The notes under the pieces: model-generated
Told to the model about the DNA's origin: nothing
The model's database searches: none
The model's input: the letters and a program-made list of their open reading frames with translations, nothing else
Shown: positions 10,758 through 45,773 of the stretch, piece after piece
How the letters are laid out: every line of letters starts with the position of its first letter
Numbering within the stretch: the first letter of the stretch is position 1
Made by a program: the position numbers and the translations under genes
DNA from: a virus
Virus record (IMG/VR): IMGVR_UViG_3300021425_002093
Span: 32,001-96,000 of that record
Direction: 5' to 3' (one strand)
DNA: 64,000 bases

Positions 10758-10786
10758 ATTATACCATCTAGATGTGTTCTTGTCAA
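10758..10786 (-). promoter_or_regulatory. consensus sigma70 promoter upstream of primase
   Basis: TTGACA-17 nt-TATAAT on the - strand. Confidence 0.8.
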
Positions 10787-34617: not shown

Positions 34618-36309
34618 TTAAGGGTTTGAGTCATCAACATAATCTACTGTAGTCCAGTAGGTCACATTACTTATATAACTTGTATCTTCTCCGTCAGTCT
34701 CTACTAGGTCCGCTGGATCATTCGGACGTGGATTCGCATTACCCGGTGCGCCAGGGCCAGTAGTATCGTAATCAGCTTCATATGTTTCGCTGTATCCATT
34801 GTTCAAAGCTTCAGCAAGTTCTTCAGCAGGAGTTGGCGCAACATACGTGTATGTACCAGTTCCGCCACTTCCACTTAGATCATTGGCCATGGCTACTAGT
34901 TTTGCATCTCGAAGAGCAAACTTTGCATCTTCAAGCTTTTCATCATTTTCCTGTATATCTAGAGTCTTTTGCTCTTCATACGCCTCGATGTCAGTTTCGA
35001 ATTGTTCGACCTGAGAATTAAATGACGAAATATTTGAATCAAATTCACTTTGATTGTATGTTATATTAACATAAGTTAGCTCACCTGTCAATTGCATTCT
35101 TTCAAATAGGCTCGAAAGAATCAATTCGTAGTCGATCCCAGAAAGTATCTTAGAGAAGAAACTTGCATCAACATAAAACGTAAAGTCATTTACAAACGGA
35201 GTGCCTGGTGCAGGTAAAGTCATTGTCCACTGATCTGATAGTACAGCGCTATCTTTCGCTAGATTAAACGTTACTGTGTTTCCACCAGTAAGACCTCGGA
35301 TTCCTATTTGCAAAGAAGGAAGTTCAGTAACGCTATTTGGATTTGTAGCGTTGTAGTCATCAACAGCTTGAGTGTAGTCGTTAACGGCTTGAGTGTACTG
35401 CTCAGACTTAAATTGAAGACTACTTAGATCTAAACCACTTTCGTTTTCAACTGGAGTAAGTTCAAACGATCCAGAAAAATCGAACTCCGCAGTGACACCT
35501 GATACTGCGCTATCGAGACCTTGCTGGCTTTCTGCTATTTGATATTGACTAACAGCGTTGTTAATCCTGTCAATATCGTTGTTCGTCAGCGTTACAGTAA
35601 CATCTTCGTCAGATGAAATATCTAATTGAGATACATCTGGTTGTGCTGGAATGTCTGCAGCATTTCCATACGGAAACGAGGCTATCTTTGCAGACGATCC
35701 AGATTGGATTTCTGTTATATCAAATTTACTTTGTGGATTAGAAAAAGTGACGAACGGAAGTTCGAAAAGAGTAAACTTTGCCAATAGACCGTTTATATCT
35801 CCCAATGGAGCAAGACTAGCAAACTGTATGGGGATGTTTGCTTGAGCGCTTATTGAGCCGTTAGAGCTATTAGATAGCAAATAGTTTGACGGATACTCAA
35901 TCACTCTTTGTATCGTCAACTCAGTATTTGTAATGTTTTGATTGTCGTTAACTGTGCCAGTATATGTAAGTCCTATGACGTAATTTCCACCTGGCGTTAA
36001 CGATGTAACTTCCCATCGACCGTCGAGGTTGGAATCTCCAACACCACTGATATCAATAAAATTATTGACTTCGAGACGATTAAAGAAATTGAGATAGTCT
36101 GCTGACGGGACTGGAGATACAGCATTGTTCCACTGTAGATTATCAGATCCAATAGTGTTAAGAACAACTCCATTAGAAACGAGCAAGCCCTTTTCATTAG
36201 AGTCGTCTAAAAATAGGTCGAAGTTATTTACGGGATCAAAAAAGATTCCGGAATCTAACTCAGAAAAAGCTTGCAGAATTTCTGTGGTTTCTGTAGTAAA
36301 CTGTGGCAT
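34618..36309 (-). CDS. divergent acidic paralog of sliding clamp gp45 with three large insertions
   Basis: Colinear similarity by eye to ORF 38963..39613 from N-terminus (QFTTETTEILQAFSELDSGIFF) to C-terminus (NVTYWTTV); late-promoter-like AATAAATA at 36339-36346. Confidence 0.7.
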   Translation of the reverse strand: MPQFTTETTEILQAFSELDSGIFFDPVNNFDLFLDDSNEKGLLVSNGVVLNTIGSDNLQWNNAVSPVPSADYLNFFNRLEVNNFIDISGVGDSNLDGRWEVTSLTPGGNYVIGLTYTGTVNDNQNITNTELTIQRVIEYPSNYLLSNSSNGSISAQANIPIQFASLAPLGDINGLLAKFTLFELPFVTFSNPQSKFDITEIQSGSSAKIASFPYGNAADIPAQPDVSQLDISSDEDVTVTLTNNDIDRINNAVSQYQIAESQQGLDSAVSGVTAEFDFSGSFELTPVENESGLDLSSLQFKSEQYTQAVNDYTQAVDDYNATNPNSVTELPSLQIGIRGLTGGNTVTFNLAKDSAVLSDQWTMTLPAPGTPFVNDFTFYVDASFFSKILSGIDYELILSSLFERMQLTGELTYVNITYNQSEFDSNISSFNSQVEQFETDIEAYEEQKTLDIQENDEKLEDAKFALRDAKLVAMANDLSGSGGTGTYTYVAPTPAEELAEALNNGYSETYEADYDTTGPGAPGNANPRPNDPADLVETDGEDTSYISNVTYWTTVDYVDDSNP

Positions 36310-36337
36310 GATCTACTCTATGACTAATTACACTGTA

Positions 36338-36988
36338 CTATTTATTACTTTTATTTGAGTGCTGATCAGCAAGCGCAAGTTGATCTTCAATCCACCTAGC
36401 ACATTCTTTAGCAGTCATTGTAGGACTGATAAGAGGCGTTCTATCGTCTTTTCCGATTCCACGAATGACAGATGCAGACAACATCATAGCACTAGCCATG
36501 ATCATACAGACCTGATGTAAGCCAGATCCGTCTTCAGCATCATCGTGATCTATGCCTCGCTCGAAGTCATCGATATGTCGTTTGAGGCTATCGATCATCT
36601 GTTGCCATGGAAGTCCCTTCTCCCAATTTCTAGACTCATACTTCTTAGCGCCGTATTCAAAAGATGCGGCTGCTGCAGCAAGTGCTTCTAGCGGAAGGAA
36701 TCTCATGTACGGGACACCGAGTGCTTCTCTTGTTCCGCCTACTTCAGCATCAATCTCAATGTCTTCTGTCATATCCAGCAAATGACTTTCTTGCATCAAG
36801 TCATCTATGTAAGAGGCTGGAGCGGGGTCTACTAGTTCACAGTCGGATGCTAAAATGAAATTGAGATAGCCGTCAGATGATCGACAAGAATACTCTCCAT
36901 TCTGCAAGTCAAATACTTCCCAGTTCTCACCAACCTTAGAAGAATACCATCTGGATCTATCAGGACATTGCGTTATCTTTACTATCAT
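36338..36988 (-). CDS. dATP/dGTP diphosphohydrolase-domain (DUF5664-like) protein with extra N-terminal domain
   Basis: LP.EAL......YGAKKY..RNWEKG.PW....DSL.RH......D.EDGSGL. Confidence 0.75.
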   Translation of the reverse strand: MIVKITQCPDRSRWYSSKVGENWEVFDLQNGEYSCRSSDGYLNFILASDCELVDPAPASYIDDLMQESHLLDMTEDIEIDAEVGGTREALGVPYMRFLPLEALAAAAASFEYGAKKYESRNWEKGLPWQQMIDSLKRHIDDFERGIDHDDAEDGSGLHQVCMIMASAMMLSASVIRGIGKDDRTPLISPTMTAKECARWIEDQLALADQHSNKSNK

Positions 36989-38962: not shown

Positions 38963-39613
38963 CTACCGAGATTCGATTGCGATCCAGTAGTTGACTCCAT
39001 TAGAACGGAAGTGTGCCATTCCCTTGGTCGAAAGGGCTACCTGGTAGTCTTGCTCCAGCAGTTTGAGATAGTCTGTTTTGATAATCATATCAAATGGCTC
39101 AAACGTTTCGTCGGGTGCGGAGATAATGCTGAAAGTATCCGCTGTAGAGTTTTTGCTATCGACGGCTGAAAGTAAGACACCTCGACCAGAACTAGAGAAA
39201 GAAATCTCAGGAAGTCCAAGGACAGCTGCAGCGTCTCGAACCTTCTTGATTTCTTCCCAAGTGATGTTGATGTCAGCAACAATATCAGGAACATTAATAT
39301 CCTTATCGGGTGGAGAAACAATCATGTTCTCTGAAGTGTACGTATACTTAACAGTACTCTTCGCATCACCGATGACAAACTGAGTTTCCTCAAGTGCAAT
39401 CTCCGGCTCATCAAACAAGGAAAGGGTTGCCAGAAAACGACCGAGATTGTATACGCCGACTGACTTCTCGAATGATTCGTCGATTTCGGCTGCAGCCATG
39501 ACTGTCTTCTGGGGCGAGATAGTTCTCAAGACACTTCCAGATCGAAACATAATACTGGGATTGATCTGAGAGAAATTTTTAAGTACTGAAATTGTATTGT
39601 CACTAAATTGCAT
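38963..39613 (-). CDS. gp45: sliding clamp
   Basis: MQFSDNTISVLKNFSQINPSI, YNLGRFL, YWIAIE; start set at MQF behind AAGGA. Confidence 0.94.
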   Translation of the reverse strand: MQFSDNTISVLKNFSQINPSIMFRSGSVLRTISPQKTVMAAAEIDESFEKSVGVYNLGRFLATLSLFDEPEIALEETQFVIGDAKSTVKYTYTSENMIVSPPDKDINVPDIVADINITWEEIKKVRDAAAVLGLPEISFSSSGRGVLLSAVDSKNSTADTFSIISAPDETFEPFDMIIKTDYLKLLEQDYQVALSTKGMAHFRSNGVNYWIAIESR

Positions 39614-39661
39614 AAGATATAATCCTTTTTTCAAGATTTAAAAGAGAGTTTATCACAAAAA

Positions 39662-40369
39662 TCACTTGATGGCAATAGCTCCGACAAATAAATGATTCTG
39701 CCAGAACGGTTGAATTTTGTCAAACCCAAATCCCGCCGTAGCGAGAGCAGATTGTATTTCTTTCCATGTCATTGGCTTCAACATATTTCGAAGAGTTTGT
39801 TCTTTGTCCAAAATGTCTTTGTCTGAGAAGTTTTCCCGCTTGTAATCGTAATATGTAAACGTCATCATTTCTTGTAGTCTTGGATCTTGAGCAACCGTTT
39901 TCTCAGCAAAGATAAACGCACCATTCTTGTTCAGTGAATTGTAAATCTTCTTGAGTACATCACGACGAGATGTGGGGGGCATGAATTGTAGGGTGAAGAT
40001 CGAAGTGATTAGATTTGCATTCACAAAATCATAGTTGCGAATGTCGCCAATATGAAACTCAACCTTTCCTTCGACACCACCAAACTCTTCACGCATTTGC
40101 TTTTCACGTTCGTCGAGAGCAGGAATAAATCCATCAGCATACTCAATTCCCACGTATGTTGCGTTGGGAGCAAATTCGTTGTTTTGTCTCATCATCGCAT
40201 GAATAGTCTTGCCTGTTGAACAACCAAGATCAATTACGTTTGTATCGTCTTCAACAAAGTATCTACTAAGATTCACTATATCATCATGTAAAACACTATA
40301 GCCACGAATAGATTTGTCGATATGATCATCGAATCCTTCGTCTCTATGTGCAAAGGTAAAATCAGGCAT
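39662..40369 (-). CDS. cmoA: CmoA-like carboxy-S-adenosylmethionine synthase
   Basis: FTF...FDDHI.KSI.GY, DLGCSTG, GDIR, FTLQF, AEK, YKR match the recalled E. coli CmoA pattern (DWTF..FPDMIQRSVPGY, DLGCSLG, GDIR, NFTLQF, SEK, FKR). Confidence 0.85.
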   Translation of the reverse strand: MPDFTFAHRDEGFDDHIDKSIRGYSVLHDDIVNLSRYFVEDDTNVIDLGCSTGKTIHAMMRQNNEFAPNATYVGIEYADGFIPALDEREKQMREEFGGVEGKVEFHIGDIRNYDFVNANLITSIFTLQFMPPTSRRDVLKKIYNSLNKNGAFIFAEKTVAQDPRLQEMMTFTYYDYKRENFSDKDILDKEQTLRNMLKPMTWKEIQSALATAGFGFDKIQPFWQNHLFVGAIAIK

Positions 40370-40904
40370 TGTTCACTCTCCTCAGTTCATCATCTGTCCA
40401 GTTACCAAACTTCTTTGCTACTCGTAAGGGTATCTCTATAAACTTATCGTCTATCCATTCATTATTGAGATAAACTTTCTTTCGCTTCATTGTCCACATA
40501 TACTTTCTTTGCATTTCATCTGTACTCACGAGCGCTTTATCACCTTGCTTGTTAAGTGTACAACCTATGTAGGGTAGTCCCTCTTCTTTCCAGTACTTAA
40601 TCTTTCTTGCGAGTGCGTGACACCATCGATAGTTCTCAGGCCAGTCGGGATCCCACTTGATATAGTAATCGACTTCTATCAGACCGATCAACTCACCATT
40701 TTGCTTCACGCCGAGATCTACTTTGTAATCGCCAAGCGGGTCTTTGCATATCTTAGTGTTTGCTTCATCCGTGATATTAAACTGCGCTTTTATGTACTCT
40801 CGAAATTCATTATCTGTGTGAATCAGATTTACTAATGCGTCTCTCTGATAAGAATCATCATAGCAGTTTTCGCCATTATGCTCTCGTATTCGTTGACTAA
40901 GCAT
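40362..40904 (-). CDS. hypothetical protein, PD-(D/E)xK nuclease-like
   Basis: D...YKVDL...IEVDYYIKW...W.HALARKIKY; 8-nt overlaps with both neighbours. Confidence 0.5.
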   Translation of the reverse strand: MLSQRIREHNGENCYDDSYQRDALVNLIHTDNEFREYIKAQFNITDEANTKICKDPLGDYKVDLGVKQNGELIGLIEVDYYIKWDPDWPENYRWCHALARKIKYWKEEGLPYIGCTLNKQGDKALVSTDEMQRKYMWTMKRKKVYLNNEWIDDKFIEIPLRVAKKFGNWTDDELRRVNNA

Positions 40905-42114
40905 TGTAAGGCTTTATCACATTTTCATAGACGGACTTTGCAAGTTCAGCCATCATCTTAGGAGCAACCATTCGACCAATTCGCTCCGCTTTCTGATTGA
41001 AGGTTCCCGTCAGTTGATAGTCCTCGGGCAATCCCATCAATCTCTTGAGTTCTGGTATCGTAAACTTACGATTATAATCATAGTGAAACACTCCGGAAGT
41101 AGTCATCTGTTGACCTAACTGAGTTAGTGTTGGACAAGGATGATAGGGAGAAGGCCGTTTCATATTAAAACACGATCCTGTTGGATTCCAATCAGCGAAC
41201 TCAGGCTGACTTGGGTTCAGTGTCTTATGTGGTCGAAATGGTAAGTTCTCGATAAACTTTTTCTGATAGGTTCTTTGTACGTAGTCGAGCAACATTTGGA
41301 TCTCTTCTGGATCATTTTCAATACCAGATAGTGCGCTTTCCATAGGAATCTTATCAGAGGTTCTCTCTGGAAACACTCGATTCATCGTTAGCACATTCAT
41401 ATCAATTGAATCAAATACATCTTGTCGAATACAAACAAAGATGGTGCGCTCACGATTCTGTGCTGTGCCATAATCAGCCGCATTCATCACTTGATACGTA
41501 ACCTCGTATCCAATTTCTTCAAATGCATTGATAAACTCAACAAGCTTACCTTTTGCTTCGCCCATAGTGATTCCCTTAACGTTCTCAGCGATGATCACTT
41601 TTGGCTGAATATCTTTTGCAATCCGAACAAACTCTAAAAACAGATCTTCAATACCTTCTTGAACCTTGTTGTCTGAGTATTTCTTTACTCCATCCTGTAC
41701 GACTATCTCACCTTCGTGAACAATATCTCCATTCTCATCGAAGTAAGACTTGCGTGTGTCTTTTACGTAACCAGCCCAGCCTTTCTCACGCTTACCCGAA
41801 ACAGAAAACGCAGAACAAGGAGGCGATCCATCTAGGATATCAAGCTCACCCTTTTTAATATTTGCAAGAGAAAGAAAATCTTCTCCAGTATACTTCTTAA
41901 TATCATCAACTAGGATTTTCGTGTCAGTATAGTTTTGCTTGTATGACGCAATCGCTTCTTCAACAAACTCGTTGATTAAAAGAACTTTTCCACCAGCGAG
42001 ACGATATCCAGTGCTACTCCCACCGCCGCCAGCAAAACAACTAATGACACTAAATCTATTTTCGTTAGACGCATTGATTACATCCTCGACTGTATATGGC
42101 TTGTATTCATTCAT
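40897..42114 (-). CDS. DNA cytosine-C5 transferase (Dcm family), predicted carboxymethyltransferase
   Basis: Motif I CFAGGGGS, IV GSPPCSAFS, VI ENVKG, VIII QNRER, X ERIGRMVAP (Arg in place of the usual GNAV Asn). Confidence 0.88.
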   Translation of the reverse strand: MNEYKPYTVEDVINASNENRFSVISCFAGGGGSSTGYRLAGGKVLLINEFVEEAIASYKQNYTDTKILVDDIKKYTGEDFLSLANIKKGELDILDGSPPCSAFSVSGKREKGWAGYVKDTRKSYFDENGDIVHEGEIVVQDGVKKYSDNKVQEGIEDLFLEFVRIAKDIQPKVIIAENVKGITMGEAKGKLVEFINAFEEIGYEVTYQVMNAADYGTAQNRERTIFVCIRQDVFDSIDMNVLTMNRVFPERTSDKIPMESALSGIENDPEEIQMLLDYVQRTYQKKFIENLPFRPHKTLNPSQPEFADWNPTGSCFNMKRPSPYHPCPTLTQLGQQMTTSGVFHYDYNRKFTIPELKRLMGLPEDYQLTGTFNQKAERIGRMVAPKMMAELAKSVYENVIKPYNA

Positions 42115-43820
42115 GCTACTAACCTACTAAAGTTCTTGACCTTCTCAAAGCGAAGGGTGTTTTCAAATTTTTCATAAAGTTGTTCACTCTTGTGGCTAAT
42201 TATAAACACATTAGAGTCTGCTGTCAACTCATTAATGATCTTTAGGAATTCATCTGTTCCAGAGCTATCCAGCGATGAATCCATGATCTCATCCATAACT
42301 AGTAGATTCGTACTTACTGAGTTTCTCAATTTAGACACCGCTCTCCAAGTAAACATCAAAGACAGATCAATTCTAAGTTTTTCACCCTCAGAAAAAGAAG
42401 CGTAAGAAAACTCGTCACGGAATCGACTCTTAATTGTTTCGTTAAAGCTTTCATCAAGTTCAAACTGAACAAAAAAGTCCATCGCAGCAAGGTACTTATT
42501 TATCAGTTTGTTCATGATTGGAACATACTGCTTGATAATCCTTGTCTTAATGCCACCATCCTTGAGCATTGTACTAACGATTGCCAAGACTTCTCTCTTG
42601 TCCATTAGCTCCTGTTGTTCTGCAATCTTTTCATTGAGTTCGTCCTGCATGGCTTCGATAGTCGTAGTGTCAATTTCTTCAGCCTCTTTTTCTGCTGACT
42701 CCAAATCATTTTTTATTCCTTTTAGCGAGTTCATTGCAAATTTTTGATTCGCAACATGTTCTCTCATTAACAAATGCTTTTTATTAATATCATCTTCAAT
42801 ATCTGATATCTCATCGATACGCTTGTTGAGTTCGTCTAACTTTTCTTGTAAAGAATCTAAGCCATTTTCGAGTTCAATACGCTTCTTATTTTGCACACCG
42901 ACATGACTTTCTTTAAAGTCTGAATCAATGTCTTGCTGACAAGTAGGACATTCATCATGATTCTCATAGAAAGAGATATCTTTCACCAACGTCCGTAACT
43001 TGTTTTTTAGATCTTGATCAATGTTTTGAGCATTCTTTAGCTTTTTCTTAATGCTATCCTTGTCAGATATTGATCCTAGAAGTGACTGTATCTCAACATC
43101 GATTGTATCGGCTAGTTCCCGCTGTTCCTCAACCTGCGACACTTGTTCTTTGATCTTTTCCTTTAGATCGTCAATTTTATTTTCATGCAACTTGCGAATA
43201 GACTCGTTGTGATCTTTTGCGGAGTCAATCTTGTTCTCTACAAGTGAAATCTGATACTTGTTTTCATCAATACCACTCTTGTTTGTAGAAACATGTTCTT
43301 TGAGTAACGTGTTCATCGTAGTGAAGATTTGAATATCAAGAAGATCCTCAATGACCTCACGTCGATCTTTTGCACTTAGTTGCATGAAAGGAATAAACGT
43401 AGAAGATCCAAGTACAACGACCTGTCCAAAAGACTTGTAACTGAGCTTCAGAATCGTATCTTCAAGATACGCTTGATAATCTCTGGCTGCAGCGTCTTGA
43501 TTAAGTAGCTTTCCATCACAGTAAATTTCAAAGATCGCTGGCTTGATACCACGACGAACAAGATATGTTTTACCCTTGTTAGTAAATTCAATCTCGGTCT
43601 CAAGTCCCTTTTTGTTGATGCTGTTCATCAACTGAGGCTTGTTGATCTTTCTAAAGGGTTTGCCATAAAGAGCAAAGCAGATGGCGTCTAGCATTGTAGA
43701 CTTACCCGCTCCGTTCTCACCCACAACAAGAGTAGATTTATTCTTGTTGAGTTGGACTTCCGTCCATACATTCCCTGTAGATAGAAAATTCTTCCATCTA
43801 ACGGTTTTGAATACTATCAT
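42111..43820 (-). CDS. gp46: recombination endonuclease ATPase subunit (Rad50-like)
   Basis: WKNFLSTGN, GENGAGKST, CPTC zinc hook, FSEGEK, MDE, ISH. Confidence 0.96.
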   Translation of the reverse strand: MIVFKTVRWKNFLSTGNVWTEVQLNKNKSTLVVGENGAGKSTMLDAICFALYGKPFRKINKPQLMNSINKKGLETEIEFTNKGKTYLVRRGIKPAIFEIYCDGKLLNQDAAARDYQAYLEDTILKLSYKSFGQVVVLGSSTFIPFMQLSAKDRREVIEDLLDIQIFTTMNTLLKEHVSTNKSGIDENKYQISLVENKIDSAKDHNESIRKLHENKIDDLKEKIKEQVSQVEEQRELADTIDVEIQSLLGSISDKDSIKKKLKNAQNIDQDLKNKLRTLVKDISFYENHDECPTCQQDIDSDFKESHVGVQNKKRIELENGLDSLQEKLDELNKRIDEISDIEDDINKKHLLMREHVANQKFAMNSLKGIKNDLESAEKEAEEIDTTTIEAMQDELNEKIAEQQELMDKREVLAIVSTMLKDGGIKTRIIKQYVPIMNKLINKYLAAMDFFVQFELDESFNETIKSRFRDEFSYASFSEGEKLRIDLSLMFTWRAVSKLRNSVSTNLLVMDEIMDSSLDSSGTDEFLKIINELTADSNVFIISHKSEQLYEKFENTLRFEKVKNFSRLVA

Positions 43821-45744: not shown

Positions 45745-45773
45745 TTGACAGATGCTTATATGTTCAGTATAAT
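45745..45773 (+). promoter_or_regulatory. perfect-consensus sigma70 promoter on the + strand (antisense to uvsW operon)
   Basis: TTGACA-GATGCTTATATGTTCAG(17)-TATAAT. Confidence 0.7.

What the first reader, a model, noticed from the sequence alone, without database searches (positions are those of the whole stretch)
39662..42114. CmoA plus Asn-to-Arg cytosine transferase cassette: predicted 5-carboxymethylcytosine DNA modification
Seen: three overlapping genes inserted between gp46 and gp45: a C5-cytosine MTase-family gene, a 180-aa ORF, and a CmoA-like gene. The transferase keeps the catalytic PC and ENV motifs, but motif X reads IGRMVAP instead of the usual GNAV/GNSV (Arg codon at 40972-40974). 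Established: CmoA makes carboxy-SAM from SAM and prephenate for tRNA cmo5U, and replacing the motif X Asn with a basic residue in M.MpeI (N374K) lets it use carboxy-SAM to make 5-carboxymethylcytosine. Inference: this phage makes its own Cx-SAM and carboxymethylates its DNA as anti-restriction armour. I recall a natural phage version of this chemistry being reported, so the core may not be new. Caveat: the Arg in the E. coli CmoA QKRSML segment appears as DKEQTLR here.
Basis: partly seen in the sequence, partly recalled or inferred. Interest (0 to 1): 0.9.

Follow-up and report, generated by a model that had tools for sequence, protein, structure and literature searches.

The report
Phage CmoX-CmoA carboxymethylcytosine cassette
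This uncultured T4-like phage carries a clear copy of the CmoX-CmoA system, shown experimentally in another phage in December 2025, which puts carboxymethyl groups on DNA cytosines; it is a further member of a published system, and its one unusual feature is an uncharacterised nuclease-like gene between the two enzymes.

Summary
Three translationally coupled minus-strand genes lie between gp46 and gp45: a C5-cytosine transferase (40897-42114), a 180-aa ORF (40362-40904) and a CmoA homologue (39662-40369).

The transferase matches the crystal structure of SpCmoX (PDB 8YF3) end to end (E 1.5e-110, 50% identity). Its Arg381 (codon 40972-40974) aligns with SpCmoX Arg350, the residue that binds the carboxy-SAM carboxylate.

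The CmoA homologue is 55% identical to the biochemically validated SpCmoA, which has the same DKE..LR segment.

The chemistry was published by Yang et al. (Nat Commun 2025, PMC12783734). This scan has already noted such cassettes in at least 65 other genomes. It is a new member of a known kind.

What differs here:
- No CmoY ligase was found in the 144-kb contig, so 5cxmC may be the final product.
- The middle ORF is a conserved, phage-only protein with a PD-(D/E)XK nuclease fold.
- None of the 80 nearest CmoX cassettes carries this ORF. A minority of other cassettes do, always directly downstream of the transferase.
- Its role is open: a modification-sensitive nuclease or a mobile homing-type nuclease.

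In passing: the whole contig has no CGCG (231 expected).

The parts
40897..42114 (-). CmoX orthologue: Arg-type DNA cytosine C5-carboxymethyltransferase, 405 aa. Cys100 is in SPPC, ENV is at 177-179, Arg381 is in GRMV (codon 40972-40974). A 19-aa insertion at about residues 124-142 is absent from SpCmoX.
   Evidence: PF00145 E 1.8e-52. PDB 8YF3 (SpCmoX) E 1.5e-110 over residues 6-400. 50% identity to SpCmoX with all published cofactor and catalytic residues conserved. Arg is present in 76 of 77 related transferases.
40362..40904 (-). ORF180: conserved phage-only protein with a PD-(D/E)XK nuclease fold. Its start overlaps the CmoX stop by 8 nt and its stop overlaps the CmoA start by 8 nt. Role not established.
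   Evidence: No Pfam, PHROG, NCBIfam, PADLOC or PDB sequence hit. 16 close and 54 representative homologues. AlphaFold2 model pLDDT 84.9, pTM 0.82. Best fold matches are the D212 nuclease (Z 9.1), Hjc resolvases (Z 6-7) and restriction enzymes. Asp17, Asp63, Trp84 and Lys101 are invariant across 37 family members.
39662..40369 (-). CmoA orthologue: carboxy-SAM synthase (SAM + prephenate to Cx-SAM), 235 aa.
   Evidence: TIGR00740 CmoA E 1.4e-38. PDB CmoA/YecO structures 1IM8, 4GEK and 4IWN at E 1e-24 to 2e-27. 55% identity to the biochemically validated SpCmoA, including the KE..LR segment.
42199..42227 (-). Perfect sigma-70-type promoter consensus (TTGACA-N17-TATAAT) inside the 3' end of gp46, about 85 nt upstream of the CmoX start. 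Candidate early promoter for the cassette (inferred).
   Evidence: 12 of 12 match. Three perfect matches in the window against 0.01 expected. Both hexamers are kept in the related locus L003, but they lie in conserved coding sequence.
42111..43820 (-). gp46 recombination nuclease subunit, upstream flank. Its stop overlaps the CmoX start (ATGA).
   Evidence: SMC_N/AAA_23. 47-53% identity to the gp46 of cultured T4-like phages.
38963..39634 (-). gp45 sliding clamp, downstream flank.
   Evidence: PF09116 E 1e-9.

Best explanation
The cassette is a CmoX-CmoA DNA carboxymethylation system of the kind demonstrated in Synechococcus phage S-B43. CmoA converts host SAM and prephenate into carboxy-SAM. 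CmoX flips out a target cytosine in double-stranded phage DNA and attacks C6 with Cys100. It then transfers the carboxymethyl group from carboxy-SAM, whose carboxylate is held by Arg381, to C5, giving 5-carboxymethylcytosine. The target is probably a short GC-containing motif. The modification masks phage DNA from restriction enzymes. No CmoY-type amide ligase is found in the recovered 144 kb, so 5cxmC itself may be the end product here. The three genes are translationally coupled and probably expressed early with the replication genes. Shown here: homology, conserved residues and gene context. Inferred: the activities, the target motif, the end product and the timing. The middle gene encodes a PD-(D/E)XK-fold protein whose role is open. 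My leading guess (about 0.35) is a nuclease that spares C5-modified DNA, comparable to a restriction partner.
For: 1. Transferase homology. It matches the SpCmoX crystal structure 8YF3 end to end at E 1.5e-110; the next best PDB hit, M.HaeIII, is at 2e-22.
2. Transferase residues. Arg381 aligns with SpCmoX Arg350. Phe27, Glu49, Phe50, Asp71 and Cys100 align with Phe25, Glu47, Phe48, Asp69 and Cys98. The paper shows that Arg350 contacts the carboxymethyl group and that the wild type accepts only Cx-SAM.
3. CmoA. It is 55% identical to SpCmoA, which is a more active Cx-SAM synthase than E. coli CmoA. It scores higher on TIGR00740 (132.9 bits) than SpCmoA does (115.6 bits).
4. No other taker for Cx-SAM. 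The 144-kb contig has no CmoB (PF08003) and no second C5-methyltransferase gene, so CmoX is the only evident user.
5. Context. 74 of the 80 nearest CmoX loci in IMG/VR carry CmoA next to CmoX, mostly between gp46 and gp45; five of the six without it appear to be cut by the contig end.
6. Conservation. SPPC, ENV and the cofactor residues are invariant in 77 of 77 transferases, and the Arg is present in 76 of 77.
7. No ligase. Neither SpCmoY, Asn_synthase nor a RimK-type ATP-grasp is found in the contig.
Against: 1. No chemistry or modified-base data exist for this phage. Everything rests on homology at 50-55% identity.
2. The contig is only about 80% complete, so a ligase or other tailoring enzyme could lie in the missing part.
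3. The target-recognition region is among the less conserved stretches in the alignment with SpCmoX, and there is an extra 19-aa insertion, so the GC specificity is not assured.
4. The CmoA homologue is below the NCBIfam equivalog cut-off (132.9 against 193.3 bits), though the validated SpCmoA is too.
5. CGCG, which contains a GpC, is totally absent from the contig. This argues that the modification does not give full protection at such sites.
Confidence: 0.85

Rival explanations
1. The end product is not 5cxmC but a further hypermodified base, such as an amide like 5-glycylcarboxymethylcytosine. It would be made by a tailoring enzyme encoded in the unrecovered ~20% of the genome, or by an enzyme of a family not yet linked to this pathway.
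For: In S-B43 only the glycine amide, not 5cxmC, is found in virion DNA. 68 of the 80 nearest cassettes carry CmoY. The contig is about 80% complete. Some related cassettes sit next to a TAGT-family glycosyltransferase.
Against: When present, CmoY is normally inside or within a few kb of the cassette. Here the cassette is gp46-X-ORF180-A-gp45 with no room for it. No CmoY, Asn_synthase, ATP-grasp or TAGT homologue is found in 144 kb. Cassettes without CmoY are common, and the paper counts 2,251 ligases against 5,615 CmoX.
Confidence: 0.2
2. ORF180 is a nuclease that is blocked by C5-substituted cytosine and works with CmoX as a virus-encoded restriction-modification-like pair. It would degrade unmodified host or competitor DNA while the phage's own carboxymethylated DNA is spared. 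This parallels T4 EndoII/EndoIV with hmC DNA, or the chlorella-virus restriction-modification pairs.
For: PD-(D/E)XK fold with an invariant Asp17, Asp63 and Lys101 and a near-invariant Glu77. Within one well-supported clade of the family (98% SH-aLRT), every member with known context lies directly downstream of a DNA cytosine-modifying enzyme, with its start overlapping that enzyme's stop. That covers eight CmoX|CmoA cassettes, one Leu-type C5-methyltransferase without CmoA (L010), and one TAGT glycosyltransferase. ORF180 co-diverges with its cassette at shallow depth.
Against: No activity is known for any member. None of the 80 nearest CmoX cassettes has the gene, so it is dispensable. More distant family members sit at gp44|gp62, after polB, or before gp59, with no modification gene nearby. 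The canonical (D/E)xK lysine is Asp79 here. In S-B43 only about 75% of GC sites are modified, which would leave the phage's own DNA exposed to a GC-specific nuclease.
Confidence: 0.35
3. ORF180 is a free-standing homing-type endonuclease, a selfish mobile gene like the seg and mob genes of T4. It has lodged in the CmoX|CmoA junction and is unrelated to the modification chemistry.
For: The distribution is sporadic. On the CmoX tree the ORF180-bearing cassettes fall in at least three separate places. The window's clade is nested among ORF180-less Y-X-A cassettes. The family as a whole occupies several different junctions between conserved replication genes of T4-like phages. The insertion is precise and leaves the neighbours intact. 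A PD-(D/E)XK homing endonuclease (I-Ssp6803I) is among the fold matches (Z 5.3).
Against: There is no separate DNA-binding domain typical of T4 homing endonucleases. The gene has no obvious promoter of its own and is translationally coupled to its neighbours. A chance landing next to cytosine-modifying genes of three kinds is unexpected. No pair of near-identical phages with and without the gene was found.
Confidence: 0.25
4. The transferase is an ordinary 5-methylcytosine methyltransferase, and the CmoA homologue serves tRNA (cmo5U) modification or some other purpose.
For: Generic family hits are to C5 DNA methylases and 'tRNA methyltransferase'.
Against: Arg replaces the motif-X Asn exactly as in SpCmoX, which accepts Cx-SAM and not SAM. 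No CmoB is present to use Cx-SAM on tRNA. CmoX and CmoA co-occur in 74 of 80 related loci.
Confidence: 0.04

Closest known systems
CmoA-CmoX-CmoY system of Synechococcus phage S-B43 (Yang et al., Nat Commun 2025, PMC12783734; CmoX structure PDB 8YF3)
   Same: Same two core enzymes (50% and 55% identity) with the same Arg, SPPC, ENV and cofactor-binding residues. CmoA has the same KE..LR segment. Both are T4-like phages with coupled genes in the replication gene region.
   Different: Gene order is X-ORF180-A instead of A-Y-X. No CmoY ligase is found, so probably 5cxmC rather than the glycine amide. CmoX has a 19-aa insertion between motifs IV and VI. An extra nuclease-fold gene not mentioned in the paper lies between X and A. 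The cassette sits between gp46 and gp45.
Engineered M.MpeI N374K carboxymethyltransferase (as cited in PMC12783734; derivatives in PMC12015181 and PMC13288465)
   Same: A basic residue at the motif-X Asn position lets a C5-methyltransferase scaffold use carboxy-SAM to make 5cxmC.
   Different: The engineered enzyme has Lys, targets CG and depends on host Cx-SAM. The phage enzyme is natural, has Arg, belongs to the GC-targeting CmoX lineage and comes with its own Cx-SAM synthase.
Bacterial CmoA/CmoB tRNA cmo5U pathway (E. coli CmoA 4GEK/4IWN, H. influenzae YecO 1IM8)
   Same: CmoA fold and reaction (SAM + prephenate to Cx-SAM); E 1e-24 to 2e-27 to the solved structures.
   Different: No CmoB is present, and the acceptor is DNA cytosine rather than tRNA uridine. 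The Arg and Glu of the bacterial QKRSMLE segment are swapped in position (KEQTLR), as in the validated SpCmoA.
T4 hydroxymethylcytosine DNA with EndoII/EndoIV, and chlorella-virus restriction-modification pairs (from general knowledge, not tested here)
   Same: A virus marks its own cytosines and encodes a nuclease that can then destroy unmarked DNA. Here a nuclease-fold gene directly follows the transferase gene.
   Different: ORF180 has no sequence relationship to those nucleases, its activity is unknown, and most CmoX phages lack it.
D212 nuclease of a fusellovirus (PDB 2W8M) and archaeal Hjc resolvases
   Same: Best structural matches of the ORF180 model (Z 9.1 over 129 residues; Z 6-7): the PD-(D/E)XK core.
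   Different: 8-13% identity, no sequence-level relationship, and a non-canonical placement of the catalytic lysine.

Membership tests
CmoX (DNA cytosine C5-carboxymethyltransferase) | Full-length homology to SpCmoX, closer than to ordinary C5-methyltransferases | tested here: met
   8YF3 at E 1.5e-110 over residues 6-400, against M.HaeIII at 2e-22; 50% identity.
CmoX (DNA cytosine C5-carboxymethyltransferase) | SPPC motif with the catalytic Cys (S95-P96-P97-C98 in SpCmoX) | tested here: met
   S97-P98-P99-C100.
CmoX (DNA cytosine C5-carboxymethyltransferase) | Arg at the motif-X position (R350 in SpCmoX) that binds the Cx-SAM carboxylate | tested here: met
   Arg381 in ERIGRMVAP aligns with ERVGRMVPP without gaps. 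The codon is CGA at 40974-40972.
CmoX (DNA cytosine C5-carboxymethyltransferase) | A CmoA gene in the neighbourhood | tested here: met
   CmoA lies 0.5 kb downstream in the same coupled gene string.
CmoX (DNA cytosine C5-carboxymethyltransferase) | Uses Cx-SAM, not SAM, and forms 5cxmC in GC motifs | not testable with these tools
   Needs an enzyme assay or LC-MS; only inferred from homology.
CmoA (carboxy-SAM synthase) | Score above the NCBIfam equivalog cut-off (TIGR00740, 193.3 bits) | tested here: not met
   132.9 bits. The biochemically validated SpCmoA scores 115.6 bits, so the cut-off excludes the whole phage clade.
CmoA (carboxy-SAM synthase) | Close homology to an enzyme shown to make Cx-SAM, including the helix segment that holds the Arg of QKRSML in E. 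coli | tested here: met
   55% identity to SpCmoA. Lys189, Glu190, Leu193 and Arg194 are invariant among the three phage enzymes.
CmoY (5cxmC amide ligase) | AsnB-like PP-loop ligase gene in the cassette or genome | tested here: not met
   No match to SpCmoY or PF00733 in the 144-kb contig, which is about 80% complete.
PD-(D/E)XK nuclease superfamily (ORF180) | Alpha-beta-beta-beta-alpha-beta core fold | tested here: met
   Model pLDDT 84.9. D212 Z 9.1, Hjc Z 6.2-6.8, NhoI Z 6.2. Foldseek returns SPARDA nuclease domains and D212 at E about 1e-3.
PD-(D/E)XK nuclease superfamily (ORF180) | Catalytic D...(D/E)xK signature | tested here: inconclusive
   Asp63 sits before strand 2 and Glu77-Val-Asp79 lies in strand 3, with Asp in place of Lys. 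An invariant Lys101 lies on the next helix. I could not inspect the coordinates.
Type II restriction-modification system (CmoX + ORF180) | Nuclease gene adjacent to the transferase, cutting the unmodified target of that transferase | tested here: inconclusive
   Adjacency is met in 9 of the 10 distinct contexts known for the clade. Activity and specificity are not testable here. There is no sequence match to any restriction enzyme family.

The most novel reading that the evidence does not exclude
ORF180 is a nuclease that cannot cut C5-substituted cytosine DNA. With CmoX and CmoA it would form a restriction-modification-like module based on carboxymethylation rather than methylation, used by the phage to destroy host or rival-phage DNA. 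This sub-architecture (transferase, then nuclease, then cofactor synthase) recurs in at least eight distinct cassettes of uncultured T4-like phages and is not described in the 2025 paper.
Probability: 0.3. Interest if true: 0.65.

Novelty: new member of a known kind. Interest (0 to 1): 0.3.

Why it matters
The main claim adds one more example to a system that is already characterised biochemically and structurally, and that its discoverers counted in thousands of phage contigs. It changes little by itself.

Three points are useful:
- It shows that the phage CmoA clade with the shifted Arg is the functional form.
- It documents a ligase-free cassette in which 5cxmC itself may be the final modification.
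- It identifies a conserved nuclease-fold gene wired between the transferase and the cofactor synthase in a minority of cassettes.

If that gene proves to be a modification-sensitive nuclease, these phages would carry a self-contained mark-and-cut system built on a cofactor other than SAM. Such an enzyme could also be a reagent that discriminates 5cxmC.

Tried and rejected
1. Megablast of the 2.45-kb cassette against 50,697 phage records gave no match. tblastn of ORF180 against the same records also gave no match, so no cultured phage is seen to carry this gene.
2. ORF180 had no hit in Pfam (also at E up to 10), PHROGs, NCBIfam, PADLOC, PDB sequences, or a PDB profile search with a 37-member alignment.
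3. The scan of bacterial and archaeal genome contigs with the broad family alignment could not run, because no stretch was conserved enough. So I have no evidence on whether bacteria carry relatives beside methyltransferases. The 1.84-billion-protein search returned only 54 hits, and every context I looked up was a T4-like phage.
4. 'ORF180 replaces CmoY' is rejected: L016-L018 carry CmoY, CmoX, ORF180 and CmoA together.
5. 'ORF180 is a CGCG-specific nuclease and that is why CGCG is missing' is rejected. ORF180-less relatives such as L027, L030, L034 and L062-L066 also lack CGCG, while the ORF180-bearing L020 and L021 have it at near-expected frequency.
6. The 355-aa neighbour of the ORF180 homologue in L007 resembles HaeIII-type restriction enzymes only by language-model features. 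Pfam, PHROGs, PADLOC and PDB did not confirm it, so I do not rely on it.
7. ParB_N, a second C5-methyltransferase, CmoB, RimK-type ATP-grasp, TAGT and a second ORF180 copy were sought in the contig, and none was found.
8. I did not run a complex prediction, because I make no binding claim.
Full report
**What is there.** Window 39662-42114 holds three minus-strand ORFs of 405, 180 and 235 aa between gp46 (42111-43820) and the gp45 sliding clamp (38963-39634).
- The junctions are overlapping start/stop pairs: ATGA, ATGCTTAG and ATGCCTGA. The genes are therefore translationally coupled to each other and to gp46.
- A perfect TTGACA-N17-TATAAT lies about 85 nt upstream of the first gene, inside the gp46 coding end. 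The window has three such perfect matches against 0.01 expected. This one is kept in the relative L003, though it lies in conserved coding sequence.
- The window is part of a 143,934-bp IMG/VR contig of an uncultured T4-like phage, estimated about 80% complete. Its gp46 is only 47-53% identical to that of any cultured phage.

**The transferase.**
- The 405-aa protein is a C5-cytosine methyltransferase-family enzyme (PF00145, E 1.8e-52).
- Its best solved relative by far is 8YF3 (E 1.5e-110 over residues 6-400). This is the crystal structure of SpCmoX from Synechococcus phage S-B43. M.HaeIII follows at 2e-22.
- Aligned with SpCmoX (50% identity), Phe27, Glu49, Phe50, Asp71, Cys100 and Arg381 correspond to Phe25, Glu47, Phe48, Asp69, Cys98 and Arg350.
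- Yang et al. (PMC12783734) showed four things. Arg350 contacts the carboxymethyl group of carboxy-SAM. The wild-type enzyme accepts Cx-SAM but not SAM. R350N is dead. The product 5cxmC forms at GC motifs and blocks HhaI.
- Across 77 related transferases collected here, SPPC, ENV and the cofactor residues are invariant. The Arg is present in 76.

**The synthase.**
- The 235-aa protein matches the CmoA equivalog TIGR00740 (E 1.4e-38) and the CmoA/YecO crystal structures.
Where E. coli has QKRSMLE, this protein has DKEQTLR. The Arg and Glu have changed places, four residues (about one helical turn) apart.
- SpCmoA has the same arrangement (DKEKELR), and the Lys-Glu...Leu-Arg residues are invariant among the three phage enzymes aligned. 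SpCmoA was shown to make Cx-SAM about ten times faster than the E. coli enzyme.
- The sub-threshold NCBIfam score (132.9 against 193.3 bits) is not a concern, because the validated SpCmoA scores 115.6.
- No CmoB is present to use Cx-SAM on tRNA, and the contig has no other C5-methyltransferase gene.

**How common this is.**
- The paper reports 5,615 candidate CmoX and 4,257 CmoA in phage sequence sets.
- My own survey of IMG/VR with the window's transferase returned 80 loci at 58-72% identity. Of these, 74 have CmoA beside CmoX and 68 have a CmoY ligase. Most have the layout gp47-gp46-(Y)-X-A...gp45, and 12 have two tandem CmoX paralogues.
- The cassette position between gp46 and gp45 is therefore typical of the group, not a private insertion.
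- Earlier notes of this scan record the same system in at least 65 other genomes.
- The core finding is correct, but it is a new member of a known kind.

**What differs here.**
- First, there is no CmoY. Neither SpCmoY, the Asn_synthase family nor an ATP-grasp ligase is found in 144 kb. 5cxmC may thus be the end product, with the caveat that a fifth of the genome is missing.
- Second, the middle gene. ORF180 has no hit in Pfam, PHROGs, NCBIfam, PADLOC or PDB sequences and no homologue in cultured phages.
- It is nonetheless a real, conserved protein, with 16 clusters at 47-98% identity and 54 representatives overall.
- An AlphaFold2 model from the family alignment is confident (pLDDT 84.9, pTM 0.82). 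It matches PD-(D/E)XK nucleases: D212 of a fusellovirus (Z 9.1, rmsd 4.0 over 129 residues), Hjc resolvases (Z 6.2-6.8), and NhoI, DpnI, HinP1I, PvuII and I-Ssp6803I.
- Asp17, Asp63, Trp84 and Lys101 are invariant across 37 members down to 23% identity. Glu77-Val-Asp79 on the third strand is invariant in the close clade. This fits a metal-dependent nuclease site with a relocated lysine. That assignment is an inference.

**Context of the ORF180 family.**
- None of the 80 nearest CmoX cassettes has ORF180.
- It occurs in the CmoX|CmoA junction in the window and in L003-6, L116-117, L114-115, L016-17, L018, L019 and L020-21. Three of these also have CmoY, so it does not replace the ligase.
- In L010 it follows a C5-methyltransferase-like gene that has Leu instead of the Arg and no detected CmoA on the 4.2-kb contig.
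- In L007-9 it follows a TET-associated glycosyltransferase.
- All of these form one supported clade of the ORF180 tree (98% SH-aLRT). Other clades sit at gp44|gp62, after the polymerase, before gp59, or among small unknown genes.
- On the CmoX tree the ORF180-bearing cassettes fall in at least three separate places. Within each place, ORF180 and CmoX relationships agree.
- Two readings fit these facts. One is a nuclease functionally tied to C5-modified cytosine, a restriction-like partner (my estimate 0.35). The other is a mobile homing-type nuclease that favours this junction (0.25). The remainder is unknown. Neither reading can be settled without an activity assay.

**Side observation.** The whole 143,934-bp contig contains no CGCG at all, where 231 are expected from trinucleotide frequencies. 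AGCT is at 0.61 of expectation. Many related loci share the CGCG gap whether or not they carry ORF180. It therefore looks like avoidance of a host restriction enzyme. It also suggests that GC carboxymethylation does not fully protect this site.

**Verdict.**
- Observation confirmed.
- Interpretation supported.
- Mechanism already published.
- Interest is low for the core claim and moderate for the nuclease-fold gene, which other first-stage notes on this stretch have flagged separately.

Noticed in passing
whole contig G000:C1 (window 1-64000 included): The tetranucleotide CGCG is completely absent: 0 in 143,934 bp against 231 expected, and 0 against 94 expected in the window. AGCT is at 0.61 of expectation. 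Several 6-mer palindromes (CGATCG, GTCGAC, GACGTC) are at or near zero. Many related CmoX loci also lack CGCG, whether or not they carry ORF180. This is probably restriction-site avoidance, and it is notable because CGCG contains a GpC that CmoX might be expected to protect.
   Followed up: partly
window 42199-42227 (-), 45745-45773 (+), 10758-10786 (-): Three perfect TTGACA-N17-TATAAT promoters against 0.01 expected by chance. The one at 42199-42227 lies inside the end of gp46, about 85 nt upstream of CmoX, and is kept in L003. It may be an early promoter for the cassette.
   Followed up: partly
L114:593-4293 and L115; L007:4747-7230 (also L008, L009): A TET-associated glycosyltransferase (PF20691) lies 0.4 kb downstream of a CmoX-ORF180-CmoA cassette in L114 and L115. 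In L007-9 an ORF180 homologue directly follows such a glycosyltransferase and precedes a 355-aa protein that resembles HaeIII-type restriction enzymes by language-model features only. This may mean glycosylation linked to the carboxymethyl pathway, or a second nuclease.
   Followed up: partly
L010:1521-3324: A divergent C5-methyltransferase-like gene (38% identity to the window's CmoX) has Leu in place of the Cx-SAM-binding Arg (RIGLMVAP) and PPCPPFS in motif IV. An ORF180 homologue follows it, and no CmoA was detected on this 4.2-kb contig. Its methyl or alkyl donor is unclear.
   Followed up: no
L089, L093-L103, L106 (e.g. L097:3971-6302): Twelve cassettes carry two tandem Arg-type CmoX paralogues (Y-X-X2-A) at 46-54% identity. 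This suggests two sequence specificities served by one Cx-SAM supply.
   Followed up: no
window 41689-41745 (CmoX residues ~124-142): A 19-aa insertion between motifs IV and VI of CmoX is absent from the crystallised SpCmoX. It is shared with L003 and L116. The L016-L021 and L114 clade has a different insertion at the same place.
   Followed up: partly
L014:264-2756: The family B DNA polymerase appears split into a 576-aa gene and a 248-aa gene (the latter matches the polymerase C-terminus in PHROGs). An ORF180-family gene lies directly downstream.
   Followed up: no
window 34618-36346: Other first-stage notes flag a 563-aa expanded paralogue of the gp45 clamp between gp45 and gp44. I did not examine it.
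   Followed up: no
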